A DNA stretch of 63,984 bases, filler included, from Perkinsus olseni (Eukaryota): NCBI GenBank assembly GCA_013115125.1. It is 15 parts of 15 records of this genome, joined end to end, with 100 filler letters (N's around TTAATTAATTAA, not from the genome) between each part and the next. Parts side by side here need not be neighbours in the genome. Positions count along the whole stretch, not along the records: positions 56,574 to 60,768 come from JABANN010001306.1; 14 more parts are not named here. One strand, 5' to 3'. The translations under genes and the position numbers were made by a program. The notes below the pieces were generated by a model. The model saw only the letters and a list, made by a program, of their open reading frames with translations, had not been told where the DNA came from and did not search any database. Position 1 is the first letter of the stretch. Each line of letters opens with the position of its first letter. Shown here piece after piece: positions 21,437 to 63,800 of the stretch.

Positions 21437-22091
21437 TGAGGTAGGATAGAGTTGAAGCTGAATTGGTTAATACGATGAGATAAACCGGGCGCCATTAATG
21501 ACGCCGACAAAGTTGTGCGCTCTTAGCCAGTTGCCAAGTCGCGTACGGTCTTCTCCAGTGCATGCCCAGGGAATGGAAATCCGGGTTTGAATCGACTAAT
21601 CTGTTTCAATCGGCTATTGCGTCCAATCTTGATCAAGGAGAGCATCTCAGAGAAACCTCCTGTCAAGCTGCTCCGTAATGTCGGATTGCAAATCTCCCGT
21701 GTCCATCATGCCCGTGCATGTATTTCTGCCCGATCCTCGTTGTGCGGAACCCTGTGCGATTCAACTTTTGACCAAGCGTGCTCAGTCGTTCAGGAGGTAT
21801 TAATCCGCCTACGNNNNNNNNNNNNNNNNNNNNNNNNNNNNNNNNNNNNNNNNNNNNTTAATTAATTAANNNNNNNNNNNNNNNNNNNNNNNNNNNNNNN
21901 NNNNNNNNNNNNNTTGCCGACGCGAAATTGGCGCAGTGGTAGGAGCGCTTGTTATCTAGTGGATCAACCGGGATCGATCCCAAAAGTAAGCGACTAGAAA
22001 TTGAAGTGCTAGAGTCTCTGGGCCCGGGAGATGCGCGCGCGGAGCCCGCGGGCAATCATTTAATCATTATTTTTGGGCGACGCATTGCCCA

Positions 22092-22330
22092 GCTGTACGA
22101 AAATTCCGAAAAGTACGAAAATTCGATGTACAAAGTAATACTGTACGAGTTTCAACTATACGAGTCGGACCTGTACGACTATTCACTGTACGTACTGGAA
22201 GTGTACCACTCGATACTGTATCAATTGTCAGTGTGCGAGTTATCAGTGTATAGCCCAAGACTGTACGTGTGGAAACTGTACGGATCAAGCTTGTACGAAT
22301 GCAATTTCCACGAGTTGTCGCTGTACTGAA
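22092..22330 (+). repeat. Degenerate 15-bp-period array with TGTACGA core
   Basis: About 16 units with a conserved core and a variable 6-7-nt remainder. Confidence 0.8.
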
Positions 22331-24693: not shown

Positions 24694-26259
24694 GCTCCTT
24701 TTGTTGATCTGTGCGATTCGATTAGGCATTTTCGGATACTAGTCATGAATCCACTTTAGTTGGTCCACTTTCCGAGTCTCATCGGAAATAGAACGGCAAG
24801 TGAAGGGGGCCTCGTATGCGACCTCATGGAGACCAATGAGAACCTTCCGCCATCGAGCACATGTACCATTTGTCACTATAATAGCCCTCCGCCGGTGGTC
24901 ACCGCTGATGTGCACAGCGCCTTTTGCATGCTACGGTTGTGCAGTTCTTTCCGAGCGTCTGCACAATATTTTTGCCGATACCCGGGAGACCCCAAGTCGT
25001 CCTCATGACCACCACAAATGTCTCCCCGCTTCGCGTTACATTACGGCGGCAGAGGGAAGTATCTATCTGATCGAGTATGTTTTGGATGTTTGTTTGGTCC
25101 CGAGTCGCTTGAATGCTCACTCAGACGACAGATATGGTCATTTCGCACTTCACCTATCTGCATTTGGTGTCGAGTGGCACACTTTGTTGATGATCTGTTG
25201 TTACATTTTGCGTTTGAAGACGCATGCAAAATTGTATTCTTGTTATCGGTATTATTATGCTCTCTATCCCTGTGTGGATTTGCAATCTCTAACCTGAAAT
25301 TTGCTATCCTAGTACACCAGTCGGTACACTCGCAGGTGCCGCCCTATCATACTTACGTTCGGGATTCCATGCCGGTCCTCGGAGTTCTGCTCTCGTACGA
25401 CCACAGGGGCTTGTGGTGGACTGTAACAGACGGTCGGGGCTCGAGAAGGCTAAACGATTGCTGAAAGCCGACAGTTGGTCAAGTCAAACAGTGTACCGCA
25501 TTGATGGCGCTCTCGGTGTTGATAAGACGGGCTTACATGCAACGTATCCGTGAACAGATGCTGGCCTATATTGATGAGGGTCTTGAACATCCAAGTCATC
25601 ACGACACCCCAATCCTGTCGTCTGCGACACCCCGATGCTCGGTCCAACAAATGGATTCAAGCGGGTCCGGTGGTCGATATTACATTTACATTCTCCTTCT
25701 TTCGGGTGAAGAAGTCCCCTTGGTGACACATAGCTAGATATTGTCTCCCTGACGAGTCCCGTATCCTTCCAATTGTCGCGAGCTATGAAGATGCCTGTGG
25801 ATACCTCCCGCTCGTGACATCTATGGATGAGAAGGGATCACACAACGCCACAGACCTAGAAACCCCAGAGGATGGTGCACACCTGGACAAAACTTGGTCG
25901 CTTCAATAAACACTAGTTTCTTGCCGACGCGAAATTGGCGCAGTGGTAGGAGCGCTTGTTATCTAGTGGATCAACCGGGATCGATCCCAAAAGTAAGCGA
26001 CTAGAAATTGAAGTGCTAGAGTCTCTGGGCCCGGGAGATGCGCGCGCGGAGCCCGCGGGCAATCATTTAATCATTATTTTTGGGCGACGCATTGCCCAGC
26101 TGTACGAAAATTCCGAAAAGTACGAAAATTCGATGTACAAAGTAATACTGTACGAGTTTNNNNNNNNNNNNNNNNNNNNNNNNNNNNNNNNNNNNNNNNN
26201 NNNTTAATTAATTAANNNNNNNNNNNNNNNNNNNNNNNNNNNNNNNNNNNNNNNNNNNN

Positions 26260-30603: not shown

Positions 30604-33600
30604 TTCTCTTATAGTGGTTCGTCTGGTCCGACTAGACCAACGACTGCTGCATCTTCGAGTGCTGCTACGCCGACTACTACCGCGCCAGCGAAGATGGGCT
30701 TGGCTATGTCTGCGATTGAGGAGACGACGCCGAAGCAAGGATCTAATGTCAGAGCTATTGTAGTGAACATTGTGGGGCAAGATGCATCCCCGATTCCTTG
30801 CGTGGCTGCCGTAGATTCATTGTGTGAGGTGTCTGTTCTTAACTCTCGTCTACTTTCGAGAATTGGACATGAACCTTCATCACTACCCCCGGTGAATCTT
30901 CAGGCGTTTGGTGGCTCGGTATGCGAGCTACGCCAATCTACTACACTCAACCTAGTATTAGGTGAGCGCAAGTGCAAGATAGATTTGTATGTTCATGATT
31001 TAGGGTGCAACATGGACATCATTATCGGCGCCAATCTACTATCATTATGGGGCTGCATTATCGATTGGTCCCAGAACATCATCATCTTTCCCGAAGGTGA
31101 GAGGTTCAACTTCCTTTCTTTGACCTCGGCTTATAAATTCTTAAGCGTAAAGCCTTTGAGTTTGGATCTGCCGGTTCCCGCAGATAGGCTTGATGACTAC
31201 CTCGGTGACCTATGCGATGAAGATCTAAGAAAGTTCCTGATCCTACGGTTAGAGGACTTCCAACTACCGCAACTCGATTTTGAGATAGAAGGTAGTGATT
31301 GTCCTTATCAATGTCATACGAGCTATGGGGTACATCCTCAGCTGCGTGAAGGTCTGGATGCTCTACTTCGGCGAATGATGGACTCACACCAACTGCGAGA
31401 AGTAGTATATCAACCTGATCGATTTATCTCACCTGCCTTTGCGAAAAGCAAAAACAGGATTGAGAATGGTGTTTTAGTGGTAAGACTCCTTGCCGATCTA
31501 CGACTGCTAAATGAGCGGGTGAAGGCACCGCCCCGTGATTGGGCCTTCGAAGCTCCATCTCTGGAGGAGTTCCTCGGAGGTATCCCTAGTGGTGATGGCT
31601 TCTATTCGGTTTTAGACATCAAGGACGCTTTTCATAGCGTCCAGTTGTCTCCGAGAGTGAAGAAGTACATGACCATCCGAGTGGGATCAAGGTTATTCGA
31701 ATATCAAGTAATGGCACAAGGACTATCCTTGTCGGCATTATATTTTAATGTCCATTTGACAGCATGTTTTAACCGGCTGTTCCATCAAGCCTGGAGACTA
31801 TGGTTATCAATATGGATCGATGATATTCTAATACATGGACAAACTCTACGGGTGACTCAGATTCGTGAGAGAATCATGAGAATTGCGGTTGATGTGCTAG
31901 AGAAGTCGGTATCGTCGAAATCATCTCCTGCGTCAGACTCTGCTGATTGTGTAGGTCTACACTTCGAGAAGGGTTACTACTGCCTCAGTACTGCATCTAT
32001 TGAGAAGCTCAAGCGAGTTCTGGATATTGAACCGCGCAACATCTCTGAGGTGAGACGCCTAATTGGAGTCATACAGTATTCGGCGACTGCTTTCCAGTTC
32101 GACCCTGGTCAGCAGAGTGGCTTCACGGAAGCATTGGCTCCAATATATGCGGTCACGACGGTCCAGAACAAGAAGTTCACATGGACTGATGAGGCTAAGC
32201 AAGGAGTACGCAGGTTGCAAGACCACCTCTTCAACTTGAAGTTGAAGCAATGTTCTATGAGTGATATCACTCGGGGAACGTGGGTCTGTATAGTGGATGC
32301 CAGTATAACTGGCTCCGGAGGCGCTTTGTTCGAGGTCAGTCCGTCGGTTCTTCCACAAGATATTACTATCGAGACTCTCCACGATAGCGAAGTGTGCTCT
32401 CTGGTGGCTATTACTAGTCATACCTTTACGTCTTCAGAACGTAAACTGCACATATTCGAGCAAGAAGGACTCTCTCTGCTAATGGCCTGGCGTCGCTGGG
32501 GGAAACTCTGGTTAACGACAAGTAGATCAAAGCCTCTGGGATCTATAAATTGTATACTGATGTCGGACTCGTCCACTGCTCTCTCTAGGTTTAAGAGCTA
32601 CACGGTGGTGGATGATCCTCTGAGTAATATTAAAGCTCGGAGATATTTGAGCTGGATATCGGAGCTTGAAGCATCAAAGTATGCCGGTATTGTGTATAAA
32701 CACATATCGGGAGAAATGAATAGCTTACCTGATATTCTCTCAAGGTTCCATGAACAGCTCGACCGGCAAGCTCAGGAGCGACTACTTAAACCTTCACAAG
32801 CTCTTGGCTATGCTTTGACGACTCCTACTGGTGAGATTTTACCTGACTCGCTGAGAGTGGTTCACTTGGCTTTTGACCGCGACCAGGTTGTCACGTTGGC
32901 CCAGCTGCAGCGACAGGATGAAAGCTTATACCAAGGAGTACGTGTGTGCGATATTATGAAGGTGATAGATGCTGATAATAGTAACGTGCCCGTTGACCTT
33001 CCGAGAATAGCGATTAATAAAATCCGTTCTTGGCTCGGACATTCTATGTGGTCTCTCGTCCATCCCAGTACCACAGGTATGGATGGGGGCAGGCAGCATC
33101 GACTACTCTACGTTCTCTCATCGTGCAGAACACTGTCACTTGAGGAGACGGATGTTAAACAACAACCACACCTGGTGGTAGTGCTATTACCTCGAGACTC
33201 TAGTGAGTCTTCTTTTCGACAGGAACTTCTGCGAGAGGCTCACGGACATGGTCATAATAGTGTGGCGGGAACTCAAAGTGAGTTACTGAGACTTTGTTGG
33301 TGGCCTGGTTGTCTAGTCGAGGTTAAGCGCTACATCAACTCATGTACTTGTAGGGAGAGTCTGGATCCTGTTCCGAGTTCTCGAAATTACGGTGTGATTC
33401 CAATGGCTTCACATCGCTTCGAAGCGATCGGATTCGATCATAAAGCTCTTCCAGAGTATGTTCATTCCACCTTTTCGGACGTACTGACGATTGTCGATCT
33501 CGCTTCAGGGTATACTGTCTATGAAGGGGTTCGCTCAGTGGGTACTGCCGAAACCGCGAGCGTGGTGCTGCGGAGGTGGGTTGGACGGTTCTCTTTGCCT

Positions 33601-34674
33601 GATCTTGTGATAACAGACCTTGCTCCGGGTTATGTTAGTAAGATGTTTGCTTTGATCAGCCAAATCATGGGTTGGAAGCACAAAACGGTTGGTGTTCATA
33701 ATGCTCAAGCAAATGGAGTTGTTGAACGGAAAAATGCAGTCCTTTCTCGCTTATTTAAAATAAGTAGGGGCTCCATTAATTCTGACGAAGATCTTCAACT
33801 GTGGCTTATGGTTGCTGAAATGACCGTTAATCAGGTTATGCGGCAAGGAGCTGGTCCGTCGGCAGAGTGCTCTACTGCTCATGAGAGGTTATATGGTGAG
33901 TCTCCACGTAGGGAGATTACCATGTGTCCCGAAGTAAATCTCGATGGTGTTAATGAGATGGGACGAGCTTGGATTCACCAACTCAAGGTGGTAGTGAACG
34001 CTTTGATTGAAGAGTACAATGTCTGGCGTTCAGAGCAAGCTCTATATAATATGCGCGATAAGCGTGCCGATCTGGCGAAACGCCGGAAGTTGGACTTGGC
34101 TTCTCGATCCGACATTGTAGAGGGAGCTCATGTTTTGTTCGAAGACCAAGAGAGAGAAGTAGTACGACTATACCGTAATCCTTTAGGGGATCCTACTATG
34201 GTTCTTCTTGATGATGGAAGCTCTGTTCAAGTATCAGCTGTTACTCTTATTAGGGATATCAGTCGCGAGCCTACCATGGTTAGCGCTAGTAGGCTGTCTA
34301 CCTATGATGAAGGCACCTTCGTTTTCTTCCGTATGAAGAGTGACCAGCCTGATGAACCAGAGTGGATGATACATGTAGGAAAGGTTGTCAACTACAATGA
34401 GGCCAAAGAGACCTATAAACTGCATGCCTACCGGGTAGGTGGCAGCAGTTCCCGACTGCGATGGTTACCACAGTGGGAAAGAGCACGCTCAGGAGGAGGA
34501 ATTGAGTATGTGAGAGCCCGGAAGTGTCCGAGCAATGCTTCTCCTTCCTTACTCGATATCAAGCGTGAAGATGTTCTGCTGGATTGTGATTTATCACCTT
34601 CAGGTAGTCTTGGGCCGAAAGCTCGCGACTGGCTCCATTATATGGGAGTGACTAAGCCGAATGCTTCGGACTGA
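30604..34674 (+). mobile_element. pol: Ty3/gypsy-type pol (PR-RT-RH-IN), intact ORF open to the contig edge; PPT near 34751-34761 and LTR start TG at 34765
   Basis: AAVDSL protease; DLRLLN, LDIKDAF and WIDD in RT; VDAS, EQE, SDS and HISGEMNSLPDILSR in RNase H; HHCC-like finger and D-D-E in integrase. Confidence 0.93.
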
Positions 34675-47726: not shown

Positions 47727-49317
47727 CCAAACCGTTCACTAGAGACAGCAGGAAGCTCGCCACCCTTAGAACGCGACGGAAACTGTGACATAGGGGAAAT
47801 GGGTTAAACTCTTGATACTTCTTGAATAAGCCATACATTACAACGTNNNNNNNNNNNNNNNNNNNNNNNNNNNNNNNNNNNNNNNNNNNNTTAATTAATT
47901 AANNNNNNNNNNNNNNNNNNNNNNNNNNNNNNNNNNNNNNNNNNNNGCCAGAGATTGGTCAAGTGCGCAATATAATCCCTACGAATGGGAGTACGATTGT
48001 TCGTCCGGACTATACCTTGAGTCTTGCCACAAGACGGATGTGCGTGTTGTGGACTGCGGTGCCAGCTCGGGGCCCAGAAGACAGCGAGATATTGCGAACC
48101 GCCGTCAGACGGTTAGAAAAAAAAAGTAGGGAAAGTTTCCTGGGAATTTTCCGGGAAATTCCCAGGAAATTCCCTTCCCGGGAAATGCGAACTTTTTTTC
48201 CCAAAAACGACAACCCTGCCCATGAAGCGAAGAAAAGTCAGCGTTCGTTTGCAACAACGGGACTGGCACCACCGGTACTGGCACCGTGAGGCGTGGCGAC
48301 ACATGAGGCCGAACCAGTTGCGCCTGGGTTCAACACGTGAACTCAAGCCCGAGATTTCTCCCATGAAACGTCCCTTCAAAAAGGATTAAGTACGGCTGTC
48401 CCACTGTGGGACTCCCACGTTCCGTTTGGCACCGTCGGTGTCCGTCGGGCGGACATCGTCGGGCGATCATCGCACCGATGAGTTGGAAGCCAAACGCAGG
48501 GTTCCACGCCGGATGGGAACAGTGGTCACTGACCAGTGGTCCACTGATCAGACTACTAGGCTGACTCTGCCGTACTTATACGAGGTTTTGGGCACCTGGT
48601 TTCCCTGTCTTACCTCAACGCGCGCGAGCGGATTCACGTCATCTTACTCGCGTCAGCTTCGTGCACTGTAGAACAGATGAAAATGGCTTGGGCCCGTCGC
48701 ATAGCATCGAGGGGAATCAAGTTAACGCTGGCAGTGTCACTGTCGTATGGGGTTGCTCGCTCAAAATGCGAGTGCAACACAGTGCTTTACCACTAGTAAA
48801 TTACTAGTCATCGCTGAGTGGGTGGCGTCACTCGTCAAGAGGCGCTGATGATAGTAGGTCGATAGAAGAGCTAGGAAAGCTCTGAAATCGCGGGCCTCAC
48901 TTCCTCACTCACCACCATGGGCAACTTTGTTCGCACTGCGATGACTAACAGCCAGCCATGTGCCTTGTTCGGCCTTCGCTCGTAAACCGCTGCGTAAGAG
49001 ATGTCGGTTCGAGGATATCGATCCTCCCGCTCGCAGCAAGTAAGCGAGTCACGCCCGGAGTAAGGTTAACCGTCCAGGCGATATCGGAAGCCGAGCGAAT
49101 CTGTCAGGCCGTTGGGGATCCCAACTCGGGACTATCCAGGGATCGTGGCACGATCATCGTGCCAGGCGCTCGGGTACTCGCTGGGTACAAGTATCCTAGC
49201 AACCTTCGGTCAAGTTGAGCCAACATCTAATCCTTCAGGCCACCAAGCCACCAACAGGCCTTCGGGAGGCCTGTCGTCGAACAGTGATTGATTGACTTGC
49301 CGAGTCATGAAGCACAG

Positions 49318-49511
49318 TGGAAGATGCTGGTGCATCGTTATCGCTGTCCAAATCCCCCGTAGCACACAATGTGTCTCTCCCGGTTAAAGGAAGCCTATGG
49401 CTAAGCTTAAGCTGCGAAGAAGTCTACATTGATCAAGTTAAATGAGGCTTTCTAAGGCATTCCCTTGCTATTATCCAGTGTGGTGTTGACTCAATTGGCA
49501 AATCACTAGCA
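49318..49511 (+). mobile_element. Solo LTR of the TRIM family at 18367-19565
   Basis: TG...CA, near-identical to the reverse complement of 19371-19565; perfect 4-bp TSD ACAG. Confidence 0.9.
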
Positions 49512-56115: not shown

Positions 56116-56703
56116 GCGTAGAGTACTTGTAGAGTACTTGTACTTGTAGAGTTGGCGGCACCATCGGGATGGGTGTCCGCGGAATCATGAGGCCACTCCG
56201 AGGGAAGTTGGTCTGGAGAAACATGGAACAAATTTGGCGGTTTCTGGCGGATTACCTGAGCGTGCCCTCCTGAACGGCGGCTGAGTAGGCACTTGAGAGC
56301 CGTTAGTCGGTGGTGGCTGCGTAGGCTGAAGTTGGGTTGGAGGAAATAAATCCAATTCTAGAAAGACGTAACCTGAAAGAGAGAAGCTTATAGCTAGTAG
56401 GGTGTGGGAGAGCAGTGAAATCGTGTATGACCTTCATCTGCTTGTCCTTCCAGAAGAGGCAGCTCGCGGTGCGNNNNNNNNNNNNNNNNNNNNNNNNNNN
56501 NNNNNNNNNNNNNNNNNTTAATTAATTAANNNNNNNNNNNNNNNNNNNNNNNNNNNNNNNNNNNNNNNNNNNNGCAGGGCTGCCTATACGGAGCTCCAGG
56601 ATATCACATTAGATATCCGAGGTCGGCTCTGGCAGGATACAAAACAAGTTGGCTTGTGGCATATTCTCGGCTCAGGGCGTTGTGGCGTCCAGGCCACTGC
56701 CCC

Positions 56704-56824
56704 TTTGTCGTCTACCTAGCCATGCTCGGTCAAGTTGTTGTTATCGCCCATCACGGGACGATAACCTCGCTATGCCAGCAAAAGGGTACTGATGAGTCTG
56801 TGTGGCAGCAGACGAAACGTCAGA
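56704..56824 (+). ncRNA. Hammerhead ribozyme (type III fold) in the 5' LTR
   Basis: CTGATGA 56789-56795; stem II GTCTG/CAGAC; GAAA 56814-56817; stem III TTTGTCGT/ACGTCAGA (one U-U mismatch); GTC triplet 56710-56712; stem I TACCT/GGGTA. Confidence 0.78.
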
Positions 56825-59800
56825 TTGGGTTGTCAGACGGTAAAAATAACAACAACTTGAATTACCTCTCAGGGTTTGAGTTGTGAGTGCCCTTCAATCG
56901 GCTCGGGAGTGAGGCAGTTTGTTGTCCCATGACCGTGTCGGAAGTTGGGGAGAATGAGATCAAGGTTCATGTGTCGGCCCCCGTACCCTTCCCGTCCAAA
57001 GGAAGTTTCGAGGACCTCCGTCGCATGCCGGACGATCTCACTCGTGTCCGACGTTGGGGAATCAGTCAGCAACAAACGGACCGTGCGACCGTGGCAGTCT
57101 GCTTGAGTCATCTGCAAGCGGACGTGTTACGCCACCTAGAGCTGTTCAAGCCCGAATTGGAGTATGCCACGTGGGAGATCTTCAAGTTGGAGTGTCTCCG
57201 TGCCACTAAGGTCCTGTTGGGAGGAGGACTACTGAATCATGAGTTCCTCCAGATGAAGATAAGAAAGAAGGAATTTGGGCTGAAGACCGAAACAGTCGCG
57301 GAGATTAGATTGAATTTCCCGGCTGGAGGGGCCAACTCGGGTAAGACGGCTAAGTTCCCTCTGAGATGTGGGGAGAACACCCTCTGGGTCGAGGCCTACG
57401 TAGTGGATGACTTGGTGAAGGGTAAAACGGTCTATATAGGGAGACCGGATTTGAACAGAAACCGAGTGTGTCTGGATTTGGCAACGGGACGCTTCCGGGT
57501 GAGAAACGCCTGGATGAAGCTGCCCGAGGGTACTCAGTGTTAGAGGGTTAGAGTGTGAACTCTTTGCTAGATGTAGTTTTCTTCGGGAATCGGTGTGGTG
57601 TTAGGGAGCTCGGGTGTCTGGGAAGGGAAGCCGTTCTCCGTCCTGTCGGTAAAGGATCGTAACTTGTTCGGTGACCGTTCTCGGGTACGGGTCGTCGGCG
57701 TGACGTTGGAGGCCCTCGCTGGCCAAAGGCGTGGCGTTCGTGGCTCCTTTGCCGAGACCCCCATGACAGCGCAAGAAGGGAGTGATCGGCTAACGCGTTG
57801 CCACCAAATCGGTGTCCGGGTTCAGTCGTGTGCTTGCAGATCCTGTCATGACATTCTCCGCTGAAGAACTCAACGAGCTGAAAGGGTTCCGTTGTCTGCA
57901 AGATGGACCCCTAGGGTGTGCCAAAGGGATTAAGTTCCGCGTGGACACGACCACAGAGAGTCCGGTCTTCTCCCGACCGTATCGGATGAATCCGATCGCG
58001 GCCAAGAACACCAATAAGTTGGTCAAAGAATTGTTGGATGAAGGGGTGATTGAGGAGACAACCAGCCCGTGGGCGTCCCCCGCGTTTGTGGTACCGAAAC
58101 GAGACGGGAGTGGCAGACTGGTGGTGGATTATAGGAAGTGGAACAAAATTACCGTCCCCGATCGCTACCGCTCTCCAACAATAGAGGAAATCTTGGGAGG
58201 AGTCTCGGAAGGGGCGCATTTCTCGGTGATTGACCTCCGAAAGGGGTTTCACCAAGTCGAAGTGGAGGAGGCGTCCCAGGGCAAACTCGCCTTCATGATC
58301 GGAAACAAGCAGTACACCTTCCGAAGAATGGCGATGGGCCCCCGGAACGCGCCGGCGTGTTTCCAACGAGCGGTGGATGCCGCATTCGGAACCTTATTGG
58401 CGCAGTGTTGTTTCGTCTACTTAGACGATATAATAATATATACCCCTAAAGGGAAGGGAAAGGCGGGGCATCTTGCGGATGTGAAACGGACTCTAAGGGG
58501 CTTTGGACCTAGCCGGGTTCACTACTCGCTTGGATAAGTGTAAGTTCGGACTTGACAGCCTGGACTACCTGGGACACCGGATAGAGCGGGGAGTCATCCG
58601 GCCGATGTTCTCCAATGTTGAGCGGATTATGCGGTCCAAAAGGCCGTGGAATCTGCAGTCGCTACGACGGTTCCTCGGAATGTGCGGGACCCACACGGGC
58701 GATTTGCCCGATGGATAGCGGCGCTGCAGCAGTTCGGGGGTATGACAGTGCAGTATCGCACTGGAGTGAGCAATGTGGCGGCCGACTACCTCAGTAGGGA
58801 CATTGAGGTCGAGTTTGCGCCAATCGAGACCCGGATTCGCACATTGGATGGGTTGAAGAAGGCCCAGGATGAGGACGGGGACTGTCAGGCTTGGAGATGT
58901 CAGGGTAAGTTCCCCAGCGGAAGCGGTCTGGAGCGCCAAACGGCGATCACAAGGGATCCTGGAACGGGAGTTATCACTCTTCACGGTAAAGCGATAGTCC
59001 CACCACTCTACCGAAAGGAAATTCTGGATGATCTCCATCGGTCCACCGGGCATGTTGGGATAAATAAGCTCTATGAGCTGTCTCGACGGGTATTCTTCTG
59101 GCCTGGTCAGAAGGAAGCTTGCCGAGAGTATGTGAATGGTTGTGAAGGGTGTGCCCGCACGAAACCCGCGACCCATCGCGCCGTGTTGCGACCTTATGAG
59201 AGCAAGGATCTCTTTGCGGATATGCAGGCCGATATCTGTGGGCCACTACCGCGCACTCAACGCGGGAACGAGTATTTACTCGTGATAGTGGATCAGGCGT
59301 CCAGGTTCCCCTGGGCTTATGCCCTGAAGGATACGAGCGCTGCGACCATCGTGGAACGATTAGGAGAGGTCTTTAGCTTCACTGGCGCACCGATGCGGTT
59401 AGGGATGGACCAGGCCCAGTATTTTACTGGGGCGTTAACAAGGAAGGTGATGGAGTTATATCAGACGGAGGTGGTGTCGGGGCCGCTCTATCGGCCACAA
59501 GCCCGAGGGCTCGTAGAAAGGACGATCGGCACTGTGAAGCGTAGGCTCGCCGCCAGTGTGAACGGGAGCGAAGATTGGGATACCTGTATAGACTGCGTTC
59601 TGGCTGGAATAAGGGCTGCAAAAAGTGAAAGTCTTGGGATGAGCCCCTTTGAGTACCTGACTGGGCGACACATGAGATTACCCTCTATGGTGGGAGTCGC
59701 CGAAGTCAAACCGATTCAGGATGACGCACGGGCTGCTGACATCAATCGCGCCGAGCGAATCCGTCAGGTTCTGGTGCGAAGTCGGCGAGTGGCTGAAGCC

Positions 59801-60183
59801 CATTCCCGCACTCGGAGTCTCCAGAACGTCCTTGGCACACGGAGTACCCTTGTTCCCCAGTTTAAGTCTGGAGACTTGGTGCTATTCAGCAAGGGGTTGA
59901 AGCCCCGAAGGAAGAGCGCGGTGGCCGGGTTGTTTATCGGGCCGTTAGAGATAGTAAAGAGTCTGAGCCCGTTTGTGTATAAGGTGAGAGGAGGAGGAGA
60001 ATCCTTCATCGCTCACGCAGACAATCTGAAGGCCTACCGTGGGAAAAAGCGGGTACTCCGGGATGAGGATGACGGGAATTCGCGGAAGAAACGGCGGAAC
60101 ATGGTGAGAAAGTTCGGAAAGGACGAGAACCAGTAGATCGTCTTTTCCCCGCTTGAGGAGTATATGGTTGATCCTCAGGTACG

Positions 60184-60313
60184 AGTCGCTCTCGTGGGTG
60201 AAGAAGACACGAGAAGTTCGTCTTCAGTTGTGGAAGACGAGGAGTCTAGTCGCTCTCGTGGGTGAAGAAGACACGAGAAGTTCGTCTTCAGTTGTGGAAG
60301 ACGAGGAGTCTAG
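60184..60313 (+). repeat. 64-bp exact tandem duplication in the element's 3' UTR
   Basis: Units start at 60184 and 60248. Confidence 0.92.
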
Positions 60314-60511
60314 GCCTAGCGGAGACCGCGGTGTTGATCATGATCATGAGTAGTTTCGTACGTACGCAAATCGAGTTGAGTTCACTCTAAAGGGAGTCCA
60401 GTGAGCGATGAGGCTGGGTATAACACCGAGCCTTGTAGCGAGCGGCAGGCTGAACTGAGAGGCACGGAGACGGCAAGTGCGGGGGAGTTGTGGCGTCCAG
60501 GCCACTGCCCC

Positions 60512-60632
60512 TTTGTCGTCTACCTAGCCATGCTCGGTCAAGTTGTTGTTATCGCCCATCACGGGACGATAACCTCGCTATGCCAGCAAAAGGGTACTGA
60601 TGAGTCTGTGTGGCAGCAGACGAAACGTCAGA
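60512..60632 (+). ncRNA. Hammerhead ribozyme, identical copy in the 3' LTR
   Basis: Same sequence as 56704-56824. Confidence 0.78.
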
Positions 60633-60868
60633 TTGGGTTGTCAGACGGTAAAGGCGTGTGAGCAGAGGCAGTTGCGCTAAATCTATACCATGCAGGTGCC
60701 TATTTGGCGGGCAGGGCTGCCTATACGGAGGTCGAGGATATCACATTATCGAGACAGCAAATTGGCGGNNNNNNNNNNNNNNNNNNNNNNNNNNNNNNNN
60801 NNNNNNNNNNNNTTAATTAATTAANNNNNNNNNNNNNNNNNNNNNNNNNNNNNNNNNNNNNNNNNNNN

Positions 60869-63800
60869 CAGCACACGTTCGTCTTTTTTTTGCGCAGCTT
60901 CTTCGAAAAGTTCGATTCAAGGTGCAAGCTGGTATTTAGCTCGTATGACAGGCCACACATCAAAAATGGCGAATCGTACTTGAACGTTGATCGGTCGCTC
61001 ACCTGTAGCATCCGTCTTCCTCCCGGGTCATGCCAAGCGAATTCGATTGACGAGCCTGTGGAAAATTTCCGACATGAAAGTCCTCGGGCATCCTACGGGA
61101 CTTCAGCTCCTCCCACGAGAGCTCCGACAGACCGACTTGACGGAACCAGATGGACTCGGCATACATATTGTGTAATTTGAAGTCCGGGGCAGTCGGAGGT
61201 CGAAGAGCTATGAAAATCGTAGCGTTGTCAGGGGTACCTTTCATGGCCAGCTTACTTTACTGCAGTACGCGTCTCCCTACTTGTGTAAATTTCGGTGATG
61301 ACAAACGCACTATTCGCCTTGCCACCAGAGCTACACCGTGACGAACTGTGCCGGATTTGCATGGTTCCTGAAACGGGAGTCGGTTGGCTCTGTGGAATTC
61401 CGAGTGATACCTCACCGAGATCAGAAATGCAAAAGGGGTAGCTCCAGGCTCCTAGAGACATTGATGCGTCCGAAGCACCGGCGTGCTTGGCCTTAGAGCG
61501 CTGCACGCTTGAAAGCATCGCCGACCGACCAAGGGCTGCTCGGGAGGGGGCTAGTCCAGCGGGCTCGACGCAACAGATATGCACCTTCGAGGGAACGTCT
61601 AGCCGTCAGGCGAGCACACGATTCCCTACCATAACTTTCTCATCACCTTTCGCTTGTTGTGGGTGGAATGACATGCGGCTCGACGGATGAATGCAAAAAT
61701 AATGAAGGCCCGACTCTTCTTGTATCTAGCATGGCTTGAGCCAACTTAGTGGCGTCAGTACCGCAACTCACCCAAATCTGCCGTCCCGTCAAGTTGACGA
61801 ATATGAACCTCGGGACGAGCTCGATCACGCGGGTTCTTATGAATGGAGGCTGGCTGAGCGTTATGTTCACGCCTAGCCAATGTGCCGGCTGTCGGTCGCC
61901 CCTCGGTATGATAACCTGCCCTGAGGCGGCGGCCTGAGGGAGATGACCATGGCGTGAGTATCACCCACTGGCGGTCTCACATCGACTCTGAACGGCTCGC
62001 TGAGCTCGTCACTCGACTGGACGGCCGGAAGGCATGCGGCGCGGACCCTCAGAGTCTTCCTCGGATCCCGGTTGGTACTCACGTCGCTCCTCGAGTGAGT
62101 CCAGAAGCGACCAACTTGCGAACGATTGGCAACCAGACCATCGCCGAAGCCAACCCGCCACAAATAGATAGGAAATTCCAGACGATTTATGACCCAGTAG
62201 GCGCTGTAGAGCGTCACGAATCTCGTGGAGGACTGCAGACGGATGCGTCCATCCAGTGATAGGGGCAGGGCCTCCGATGGGTCAAGAGCGCTAGCCACCT
62301 CTACACGGATGTACAAAGGAGCAGTGCCCTTTTCCCTTTGGGGCTTCAGCCTTAGCACAGAATCGCCCAATCTTGCTTTTGAGAAGGAAACGTCGACCGG
62401 GTCGCTCACGAAGTCACCAGCTTGGACGAGTATTTGCTGCATAAGGCGCGGGCACTTTGCATTCTCCCCCGGCTGGAGGTCATGACAAACCCATCCAGCG
62501 CTGCCATCCGGATCGATGCCAGGCGGAATCAGATGAACTGAGACGCTACGGCAAAGTCGGTTGCGGATCTGCAGGGCCCACTCTAGAAGAATCTCGAACG
62601 ACAAATCAGACGTTCTCGAATTCCGAGCTTGGCTGCTCACAGCGATGACAGTAGAGATGAGAGATAACTTCTGGGCTGTGCCGTCGATAGGTACATCGAA
62701 TTCGAATGACGAGCCGGGCATCNNNNNNNNNNNNNNNNNNNNNNNNNNNNNNNNNNNNNNNNNNNNNNNNNNNNNNNNNNNNNNNNNNNNNNNNNNNNNN
62801 NNNNNNNNNNNNNNNNNNNNNCAGTAGAGATGAGAGATAACTTCTGGGCTGTGCCGTCGATAGGTACATCGAATTCGAATGACGAGCCGGGCATCTGGCT
62901 ATAGTCCTTGATCTGTGTGGATTGGTACCGAGCCAAGCCCTCAAGAGTGGCCCTCGGGAGCAAAGGTGAAATGCATTGCTCCAACCTTCGCCAGGCTTCC
63001 TCGCTATCGGAGCCGTCCCATCGAGAGCCTTGAATAACAGGTTCGCATATCTTCCAGAGACCGAGTCCAATCGCAGCGAACTTCTTGTCACCGATAGCCC
63101 GAGGCTTCGAGCGGAAACACTGCTCAGGTAGCATCCAGTCGATCGGAATAGGAACGGCCTCGCCTGGCGCCAAGATCAGATGGGGTGGTACATATGTGCT
63201 CCGAACAAGCTCTGCTCTAGTCGAGCTTTTCGAGCCTCTCGGGTGATTGCTCGCTCCTCTTGTTTGCATGAAAGACCCACCCGAAGGAACATCGCCCCCT
63301 CCGGAATTTGTCCATGGTTCCCTCCGTGGTCCAACGATCACTAAAATGGCACTCGTGTCGTTGACAACAGTGTAGAGGGAAGATACGCAGACATCCCATA
63401 CTGATAGGGTGGGGTGCAATTCTACCCTGACCATGATCCGGACCGTGGTCCACTCTCGACGAGCTCGGTTGAGGATGCCACTCTCGTTCTCGACACTGCC
63501 TCTTGTCGGCGATGAATCCCTGATTACCCCCTTGGGGGTGCTTCGCAGAACGTTCGTCGCTCTAAATGCTTCGACGGGCACCCGGAAGCTGTGGACGCGG
63601 GAGCAAGACTGATTGAGGGACCCCAGCCGTTCGAGGAAGACTTTATGGCATCCCAGTTGAATACACAGGTCGAAGGGTAGAGTACTGCCGTCGCTCTCAT
63701 TAACCGGCAACGCAAATCCGTCGCGGCAGCCGTTCACGACCTCTAGCCAGTCATCAATGGTTTTCCCAGTCCTCGTCACTCCACGTTCCGGATCTTCCTT

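What the first reader, a model, noticed from the sequence alone, without database searches (positions are those of the whole stretch)
56713..56734. Predicted ribozyme cut exposes a 22-nt spliced-leader-like 5' end
Seen: the sequence right after the predicted cut is TACCTAGCCATGCTCGGTCAAG. Known: the Perkinsus/dinoflagellate SL is 22 nt, DCCGTAGCCATYTTGGCTCAAG. An ungapped comparison gives 15-16 of 22 matches, with TAGCCAT and the terminal TCAAG in exact register. Inference: the element may encode an SL mimic, or a captured SL relic, that ribozyme cleavage places at the RNA 5' end, possibly aiding translation without trans-splicing.
Basis: partly seen in the sequence, partly recalled or inferred. 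Interest (0 to 1): 0.8.

Follow-up and report, generated by a model that had tools for sequence, protein, structure and literature searches.

The report
Ribozyme-bearing retrotransposon repeat with leader-like start
The 22 bases sit just after a convincing self-cleaving ribozyme site in the terminal repeat of a Perkinsus retrotransposon and do resemble the host's spliced leader, but nothing shows that they act as one.

Summary
Bases 56713-56734 read as quoted and match the spliced-leader (SL) consensus at 16/22, and Perkinsus marinus SL1 at 15/22, with TAGCCAT and TCAAG in register.

The cut is well supported. A canonical hammerhead sits in both 164-bp LTRs of a defective Ty3/gypsy-like element of Perkinsus olseni, a genus that uses this SL.

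At that exact offset the match beats 20,000 of 20,000 shuffled LTRs. As a plain hit it is ordinary: two unrelated 16/22 sites occur in the same 64 kb.

The 22-mer already has structural jobs:
- nt 1-5 form hammerhead helix I.
- nt 18-22 begin a 15-nt self-primer, perfectly complementary to the primer-binding site just after the LTR.

The SL's Sm-like site and GU donor are absent. A ribozyme product has a 5'-OH, so no cap. Assembled RNA contigs start near 56912, not 56713 (weak).

My odds:
- incidental resemblance, about 0.5
- decayed SL relic, about 0.3
- working SL mimic, about 0.05
- no real ribozyme, about 0.08

Family-wide LTR conservation could not be tested here. The firmer novelty is a retrozyme-like, self-priming LTR element in a perkinsid.

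The parts
56681..56844 (+). 5' LTR (164 bp, TGTGG...GGTAAA)
   Evidence: Direct repeat 56675-56844 = 60483-60652 with one mismatch, at 56678. The DNA unitig 56679-56844 is bounded by branch points. The target-site duplication sets the left edge.
60489..60652 (+). 3' LTR, identical to the 5' LTR
56676..56680 (+). Target-site duplication GGCGT; the second copy is at 60653-60657
   Evidence: A contig of run X7 joins 56640-56680 directly to the sequence that follows the 3' LTR. This is an uninterrupted unit of the target repeat (read).
56704..56824 (+). Hammerhead ribozyme with open helix III (type III topology); the twin is at 60512-60632
   Evidence: Core CTGATGA...CGAAAC is found 2 times against 0.1 expected. 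Helix III has 7/8 pairs, helix I 5/5, helix II 5/5, and the constrained fold is -42.7 against an MFE of -43.1 kcal/mol. The descriptor search finds only these two sites, with 0 hits in 300 random sequences. Rfam Hammerhead_3 scores only 17.4 bits against a gathering score of 48.5.
56710..56712 (+). Cleavage triplet GUC; the predicted cut lies between 56712 and 56713 (60520/60521 in the 3' LTR)
56713..56734 (+). The SL-like 22-mer. nt 1-5 are the 5' strand of helix I, nt 6-17 are part of the long imperfect helix I extension, and nt 18-22 start the self-primer. It contains ATG 56722.
56730..56744 (+). Self-primer candidate TCAAGTTGTTGTTAT
   Evidence: Perfect reverse complement of 56846-56860. 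0 of 5000 shuffles give a complement of 11 nt or more.
56846..56860 (+). Primer-binding site, 2 nt after the LTR end, with no tRNA-type TGG start
56929..57543 (+). ORF1: gag N-terminal part fused to the C-terminal part of the protease. The gag C-terminal part and the DTG active site are deleted.
57812..58537 (+). Reverse transcriptase ORF (RVT_1, E 5e-21); the frame ends early
58646..60136 (+). RNase H tail plus integrase (Integrase_H2C2, rve). 100% identical to a Perkinsus olseni protein.
60481..60487 (+). Polypurine tract candidate GGGGGAG, just before the 3' LTR
   Evidence: Read.
56912..57570 (+). Stretch covered by the abundant RNA-type contigs: X8 56912-57507, X10 56913-57570, X7 57001-57545

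Best explanation
The 22-mer is the first 22 nt of the downstream product of a hammerhead ribozyme. The ribozyme sits in each 164-bp LTR of a defective Ty3/gypsy-like retrotransposon of Perkinsus olseni.

Its bases are already used by the element's own RNA structure. nt 1-5 pair with GGGUA to make helix I. nt 6-17 lie in the long imperfect extension of helix I. nt 18-22 open a 15-nt stretch that is perfectly complementary to the primer-binding site just after the LTR. On this reading the likeness to the host SL is incidental, and it is not an SL function.

Proposed working (inferred):
1. Transcripts that run through the element self-cleave in both LTRs. This gives a 3,808-nt unit with a 5'-OH and a 2',3'-cyclic phosphate and no terminal redundancy.
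2. As proposed for plant retrozymes, a host ligase may circularise this unit.
3. After cleavage, the 5' region refolds onto the primer-binding site and primes reverse transcription, as in Tf1-type self-priming.

Shown: the sequence anatomy, the fold energies, the statistics and the insertion structure. Inferred: cleavage, circularisation and priming.
For: - Element anatomy: identical LTRs, RT and integrase domains, a 5-bp target duplication and an uninterrupted target unit.
- Ribozyme: all core bases are present, GUC is the cleavage triplet, and the three helices form. The hammerhead fold lies within 0.4 kcal/mol of the MFE. The descriptor search finds only these two sites, with 0 hits in 300 random sequences.
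- Self-primer: a 15-nt perfect complement at the primer-binding-site position, with 0 of 5000 shuffles giving 11 nt or more. The MFE of the cleaved 5' region forms exactly this helix (-52.2 kcal/mol, z -2.47).
- Precedents: self-priming from a 5' stretch of the LTR transcript (PMC4600332 and PMC6317226, passages), and hammerheads in LTRs with primer-binding site, polypurine tract and target duplication (PMC7761336, passages).
- SL features are missing: the Sm-like site and the GU donor are absent. SL RNA intron primers show no likeness above background.
- Two unrelated 16/22 hits occur in the same window.
Against: - The in-register match is rare: 1.4e-5 per position, and 0 of 20,000 shuffles reach 16 at the offset. 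Neither helix I nor self-priming dictates which bases are used, so these roles do not explain the likeness.
- A gapped alignment recovers 19 of the 22 SL bases.
- A second SL-like site, at 49193, shares three non-SL bases and the following TTG with the LTR 22-mer. That hints at a common SL-like source.
- Rfam does not call the ribozyme: 17.4 bits against 48.5, with a different and poorer pairing.
- No cleavage, circle or priming has been observed.
- A related copy of the same species (P0005) lacks the 39 nt that hold the primer-binding site.
Confidence: 0.5

Rival explanations
1. Decayed SL relic. An ancestor's genomic RNA was SL trans-spliced, and reverse transcription fixed the SL at the start of the transcribed part of the LTR. 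The hammerhead now recreates that same 5' end. The SL copy has since drifted and has no SL function today.
For: - The in-register match has a per-position probability of 1.4e-5, and 0 of 20,000 shuffles reach it at the offset.
- The host genus uses this SL. P. marinus holds over 100 genomic SL-like copies without an intron, most starting with T, as this one does (PMC3101222, passages).
- SL relics are the accepted mark of retroposition in dinoflagellates (10.1101/783902, passages).
- The gapped alignment gives 19 matches.
- A P. marinus 'S-like' primer, which is SL plus downstream bases, aligns at score 12, the window maximum.
Against: - The longest exact block is 7 nt, so it would fail the word-size-9 BLAST criterion used for relics.
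- Equal ungapped scores occur twice elsewhere in 64 kb.
- An SL tail on minus-strand strong-stop DNA would not pair at the 3' LTR, so capture needs a rare event (inference).
- The two LTRs are identical, so nothing shows drift from a better SL.
- No family alignment was possible.
Confidence: 0.3
2. Working SL mimic. Ribozyme cleavage exposes an SL-like 5' end that recruits SL-dependent factors and helps translation without trans-splicing.
For: - The match and its register.
- ATG 56722 lies 9 nt from the predicted 5' end and is in frame with ORF1, with one TGA between them. A related copy, P0005, is annotated as starting at this ATG and reading on into gag.
Against: - The cleavage product has a 5'-OH and no cap (PMC7761336, passages).
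- The Sm-like motif of the SL is not kept.
- From 56713, three AUGs and the folded ribozyme precede the ORF1 AUG.
- The contigs of X10 (RNA on record) and X8 (kind not on record) that cover ORF1 start at 56913 and 56912, with no loose end, while the DNA run goes on (a weak hint).
Confidence: 0.05
3. There is no ribozyme. The hammerhead-like motif is a chance feature of an ordinary LTR, and the 22-mer has no defined place in any RNA.
For: - Rfam gathering search: 0 matches.
- The best Hammerhead_3 score is 17.4 bits, E 0.5, with another pairing.
- Helix III has one mismatch, and the unconstrained MFE does not form it.
- There is only one sequence, so no covariation can be assessed.
Against: - The core pattern is found 2 times against 0.1 expected.
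- The full descriptor gives 0 hits in 300 random sequences.
- The constrained fold is isoenergetic with the MFE.
- The setting matches known LTR-borne hammerheads.
Confidence: 0.08

Closest known systems
Plant LTR retrozymes (type III hammerhead in each LTR)
   Same: A hammerhead with open helix III in both LTRs, a primer-binding site right after the 5' LTR, a polypurine tract before the 3' LTR, a short target duplication, and a unit delimited by the two cut sites (PMC7761336, passages).
   Different: - This family encodes gag, protease, RT and integrase, whereas retrozymes are non-coding.
- The LTR is 164 bp rather than about 350 bp.
- The primer-binding site is self-complementary, not tRNA-Met.
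- The target duplication is 5 bp rather than 4 bp.
- The host is a perkinsid alveolate, not a flowering plant.
- No circular RNA has been shown here.
Self-priming LTR retrotransposons (Tf1/sushi group, Tj1)
   Same: The primer-binding site is complementary to a 5' stretch of the element's own LTR transcript rather than to a tRNA (PMC4600332 and PMC6317226, passages).
   Different: - In Tf1 and Tj1 the primer is described as the 5' end of the mRNA. Here it begins 17 nt inside the predicted ribozyme-made end.
- Pfam finds no chromodomain.
- Phylogenetic placement was not tested.
HDV-like ribozymes at the 5' end of non-LTR retrotransposons (R2, L1Tc)
   Same: A self-cleaving RNA that stays on the downstream product and frees the element's 5' end from a co-transcript (abstracts of PMC3774820 and PMC3383444 in the listing).
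   Different: Those use a different ribozyme fold, belong to a different retroelement class, and have one ribozyme per element rather than one per terminal repeat.
Genomic SL relics of dinoflagellates and Perkinsus
   Same: An SL-like 22-mer in DNA, without an SL intron, at the 5' edge of a reverse-transcribed unit.
   Different: Only 15-16 of 22 match and the longest block is 7 nt. It lies inside an LTR and exactly at a ribozyme cut, not upstream of a retrogene.

Membership tests
Hammerhead ribozyme | Conserved core CUGANGA ... GAAA and an NUH cleavage triplet | tested here: met
   CTGATGA 56789-56795, GAAA 56814-56817, GUC 56710-56712
Hammerhead ribozyme | Three helices around the core | tested here: met
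   Helix I 5/5, helix II 5/5, helix III 7/8. Constrained fold -42.7 against MFE -43.1 kcal/mol. Descriptor search: 0 hits in 300 random sequences.
Hammerhead ribozyme | Score above the Rfam gathering threshold | tested here: not met
   0 matches at gathering. Hammerhead_3 scores 17.4 bits against 48.5. The 66-nt insert in helix I is outside what the model allows.
Hammerhead ribozyme | Self-cleavage | not testable with these tools
   No raw RNA reads were on offer; only assembled contigs could be laid.
LTR retrozyme | Hammerhead in both LTRs, plus primer-binding site, polypurine tract and target duplication | tested here: met
LTR retrozyme | Non-coding and non-autonomous, with a tRNA-Met primer-binding site | tested here: not met
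   RT and integrase ORFs are present. The primer-binding site pairs with the LTR itself and has no TGG start.
LTR retrozyme | Accumulates as circular RNA | not testable with these tools
   Contigs cannot show circles. No joint 60520 to 56713 could be sought, because the stretch laid ended at 60180.
Self-priming (Tf1-type) LTR element | Primer-binding site complementary to the 5' part of its own LTR transcript | tested here: met
   15/15 nt complementary; 0 of 5000 shuffles give 11 nt or more
Self-priming (Tf1-type) LTR element | The primer is the very 5' end of the RNA | tested here: inconclusive
   It starts 17 nt after the predicted cut. The true RNA 5' end is unknown.
Perkinsus/dinoflagellate SL (gene or relic) | Near-identity to the 21/22-nt SL | tested here: not met
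   15/22 to PmaSL1 and 16/22 to the degenerate consensus, with a longest block of 7 nt
Perkinsus/dinoflagellate SL (gene or relic) | Sm-like site within the exon and a GU donor after it | tested here: not met
   ATGCTCGG in place of ATCTTGG, and TT follows the 22-mer. Intron primers show no likeness above background.
Perkinsus/dinoflagellate SL (gene or relic) | The host uses this SL | tested here: met
   Integrase ORF 100% identical to a Perkinsus olseni protein. SL trans-splicing is reported for the genus in PMC3101222 and PMC2868825 (passages). The SL of P. olseni itself was not seen.

The most novel reading that the evidence does not exclude
The LTR holds a drifted copy of the Perkinsus spliced leader, captured from a once trans-spliced genomic RNA. 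The hammerhead is kept because it regenerates exactly that 5' end from read-through transcripts. The family would then have exchanged SL trans-splicing for ribozyme processing. It would replicate as a unit-length, probably circular, self-primed RNA: a protein-coding lineage of retrozymes in an alveolate parasite.
Probability: 0.2. Interest if true: 0.8.

Novelty: new variant of a known kind. Interest (0 to 1): 0.5.

Why it matters
Hammerheads in LTRs are so far described for non-coding plant retrozymes. Those are assumed to borrow the enzymes of Ty3/gypsy elements (PMC7761336, passages). A gag-protease-RT-integrase family that carries the ribozyme in its own LTRs and primes itself would link the two.

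It would also place ribozyme-processed retroelements in the alveolates. My searches found no paper on the subject. 'hammerhead' with 'Perkinsus' gave 2 papers, both about sharks. 'retrozyme' with 'dinoflagellate' gave 0.

If the SL likeness proves to be descent, it would show an LTR element recording its own trans-spliced past. It would also offer a natural case in which a ribozyme replaces trans-splicing for 5'-end formation.

If the likeness is chance, the finding as written is ordinary, and only the ribozyme and self-primer anatomy remains of interest.

Tried and rejected
**Sources that were closed or empty**
- Own genome: not held.
- Cluster members: switched off.
- As a result, no second LTR copy could be read.

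**Searches for relatives**
- Metagenome scan for SL blocks plus a hammerhead core gave 10 loci. Nine are true dinoflagellate SL RNA genes with a chance CTGATGAG...CGAAA downstream and one looks bacterial, so none is a relative.
- Viral contigs: the protein scan confirmed nothing. The core-pattern scan gave 2 loci, which I did not examine.
- The LTR translated as a 68-aa peptide found only P0005 among longer proteins.
- The exhaustive profile search gave 3 hits. I read two of them, both long repeat proteins at 31-38% identity with no TDE...TKR signature, and rejected all three as spurious; the third (E 2.8e-4) was not read.

**Other comparisons**
- SL RNA intron primers against the LTR scored no better than about 1,000 background sites.
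- Extended homology between 49050-49400 and the LTR region is limited to a 23-nt block of score 26. 2 of 300 shuffles reach that, which is not significant for a window-wide search. Nothing at 49193 lies in a repeat.
- The Rfam alternative cut at 56768 was rejected because helix III is mostly unpaired there.
- A tRNA primer was considered. The window has no tRNA genes to compare, and the primer-binding site lacks a TGG start.
- The bacterial promoter and terminator scan is irrelevant to this host.

**RNA cover**
- In runs X7, X8 and X10 no contig covers 56695-56911, which holds the LTR, the ribozyme and the primer-binding site.
- The idea that AG 56913-56914 is a trans-splice acceptor is only a guess from where the contigs start.

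Full report
**What the window is**

The window is a chain of contigs of about 4.2-4.3 kb each. They are joined by runs of N around a TTAATTAATTAA linker, which occurs 14 times. The finding lies in one 4,195-bp contig, 56574-60768. Neighbouring contigs say nothing about its genomic surroundings.

No whole genome is held for the window. The integrase ORF is 100% identical to a protein that its source names as Perkinsus olseni. Other partial proteins of that species match ORF1 at 81-96% identity.

The genus trans-splices an SL of 21-22 nt. P. marinus carries more than 100 SL-like genomic copies without an intron, 'most starting with T' (PMC3101222, passages; PMC2868825, passages).

**The element**

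A 170-nt direct repeat, 56675-56844 = 60483-60652, has one mismatch. It flanks ORFs with RVT_1 (E 5e-21), Integrase_H2C2 and rve domains.

Laying contigs of public runs gave three results:
- A DNA unitig spans exactly 56679-56844 and branches at both ends into the 5'-LTR and 3'-LTR contexts.
- A contig of run X7 runs from 56640-56680 straight into the sequence that follows the 3' LTR.
- That contig fixes a 5-bp target duplication, GGCGT (56676-56680 and 60653-60657).

The LTRs are therefore 164 bp, 56681-56844 and 60489-60652. The target is a tandem repeat of about 160 nt.

The copy is defective. Alignment with P0005, P0006 and P0007 shows that the gag C-terminal part and the protease DTG site are deleted. 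The RT frame also ends early.

**The ribozyme**

CTGATGA...CGAAAC occurs twice, once per LTR, against 0.1 expected. With the cut after GUC at 56712:
- helix III has 7 of 8 pairs
- helix I has 5 of 5 pairs and closes a long imperfect hairpin
- helix II has 5 of 5 pairs

The fold forced into this shape costs -42.7 kcal/mol, against -43.1 for the free MFE.

A descriptor search of both strands finds only the cuts at 56712 and 60520. It requires the core, helix II of 4 or more pairs, helix III of 7 or more out of 8, and helix I of 5 or more pairs. It finds nothing in 300 random sequences of window length. The thresholds were set after seeing the site.

Rfam does not call the ribozyme. There are 0 matches at gathering. 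The best result is Hammerhead_3 at 17.4 bits, E 0.5, with a different and badly paired helix III. The 66-nt insert in helix I is the likely reason.

I put the ribozyme at about 0.85. Cleavage itself is not shown.

**The 22-mer against the SL**

The sequence is as quoted. It matches the consensus at 16 of 22 and PmaSL1 at 15 of 22, with TAGCCAT and TCAAG in register.
- The per-position probability is 1.4e-5 for the consensus and 2.5e-5 for PmaSL1.
- Of 20,000 dinucleotide shuffles of the LTR, none reaches 16 at the offset, and 44 reach 16 anywhere.
- In the real window, 2 unrelated 22-mers of 124,296 also reach 16.
- A gapped alignment recovers 19 SL bases at score 12. That is the window maximum for PmaSL1 and a tie for PmaSL2.

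The likeness is therefore not remarkable as a search hit. It is remarkable for falling exactly on the cut. I take the chance reading as still the more likely, but not by much.

**What the 22 bases do in the element**

nt 1-5 are helix I. nt 18-22 open TCAAGTTGTTGTTAT (56730-56744). That stretch is the perfect reverse complement of 56846-56860, which starts 2 nt after the LTR, where a primer-binding site belongs. No shuffle of 5,000 gives a complement of 11 nt or more.

The MFE of the cleaved 5' region forms this 15-bp helix around the ribozyme core.

This is the signature of self-priming, known from Tf1, Tj1 and the Tf1/sushi and Tcn1 groups (PMC4600332 and PMC6317226, passages). It gives the TCAAG block a job. 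It does not explain why these bases, rather than any others, are used.

**Against a working SL mimic**
- The candidate Sm-binding site that PMC3101222 names within the SL is not kept.
- No GU follows the 22-mer.
- SL RNA intron primers show no likeness above background.
- A hammerhead product has a 5'-OH (PMC7761336, passages), so it lacks the cap.
- From 56713, three AUGs precede the ORF1 AUG.
- Contigs of X8 (kind not on record) and X10 (RNA on record), from two studies, start at 56912 and 56913 with no loose end, while the DNA run continues.

One point cuts the other way. The first AUG, at 56722, lies inside the 22-mer and is in the ORF1 frame, with a single TGA between them. P0005 is annotated as starting at this AUG. 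It reads 38 of 39 residues identical through the ribozyme and then goes on into gag, but it lacks the 39 nt that hold the primer-binding site. The one substitution, Thr to Ser, can be made by a change at the bulged A of the helix I hairpin. That is an inference from a single case.

**Mechanism proposed**

Cleavage in both LTRs would give a 3,808-nt unit without terminal redundancy (spacing). As in the retrozyme model, such a unit needs circularisation, or an uncut partner RNA, for complete reverse transcription. Self-priming would start that synthesis. All of this is inferred.

**Relatives**

None could be read. The metagenome scan returned true dinoflagellate SL RNA genes and one bacterial chance hit. 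The viral collection gave nothing usable. Protein searches with the LTR peptide found only P0005 and spurious repeat proteins.

**Print**

The searches found no paper on hammerheads in Perkinsus and none on retrozymes in dinoflagellates. None links hammerheads, SLs and retrotransposons in this sense; that search gave 3 unrelated papers. The search for 'Perkinsus', 'retrotransposon' and 'LTR' returned 22 papers, of which 12 were listed, and by title or abstract none of the 12 describes this family.

**Verdict**
The place and the excess over chance are real. A relic origin is possible, at about 0.3. A function as an SL mimic is unsupported, at about 0.05.
- The better-founded novelty is a retrozyme-like, self-priming LTR retrotransposon family in a perkinsid.

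Noticed in passing
49193-49217 (+): A second SL-like 22-mer (16/22). It shares with the LTR 22-mer three bases that differ from the SL (positions 4, 15 and 17) and the next three bases, TTG. It has no hammerhead and lies in no repeat. It may point to a variant SL-like source sequence in this species, or it may be chance.
   Followed up: partly
56574-56680 and 60658-60768: The element is inserted in a tandem repeat of about 160 nt. In the DNA run this repeat has a higher k-mer depth (437-1345) than the LTR (671) or the interior (302). It is also present in the probable RNA run X7 as uninterrupted units.
   Followed up: partly
56722-56886 (+): ATG 56722, inside the 22-mer, opens a 54-codon frame through the ribozyme and the primer-binding site. 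It is in the same frame as ORF1 and separated from it by one TGA. A related protein of the same species (P0005) starts at this ATG and reads on into gag, but lacks the 39 nt 56839-56877.
   Followed up: partly
56912-57570 (+): Contigs covering only the truncated ORF1 have far higher depth (399, 76 and 6.6 in X7, X8 and X10) than those over RT and integrase (about 2-10). This suggests a short abundant transcript of the deleted gag-protease fusion.
   Followed up: no
60184-60311 (+): A perfect tandem duplication of 64 nt lies between the integrase stop and the 3' LTR.
   Followed up: no
30604-34671 (+): A second, unrelated pol ORF of 1,356 aa with RVT_1 and Integrase_H2C2 domains fills almost a whole contig. 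No LTR is in view.
   Followed up: no
21914-22152 and 25921-26159: One contig begins and ends with the same 239 nt at 100% identity. It may be a circular or tandem unit, or an element bounded by repeats.
   Followed up: no
L001-L009: Lake-metagenome contigs carry a canonical dinoflagellate SL RNA gene (SL followed by GT). By chance it is followed by CTGATGAG...CGAAA without hammerhead helices.
   Followed up: partly
62649-62722 and 62822-62895: An identical 74 nt lies on both sides of a linker-less run of N. This is probably an unclosed assembly overlap.
   Followed up: no
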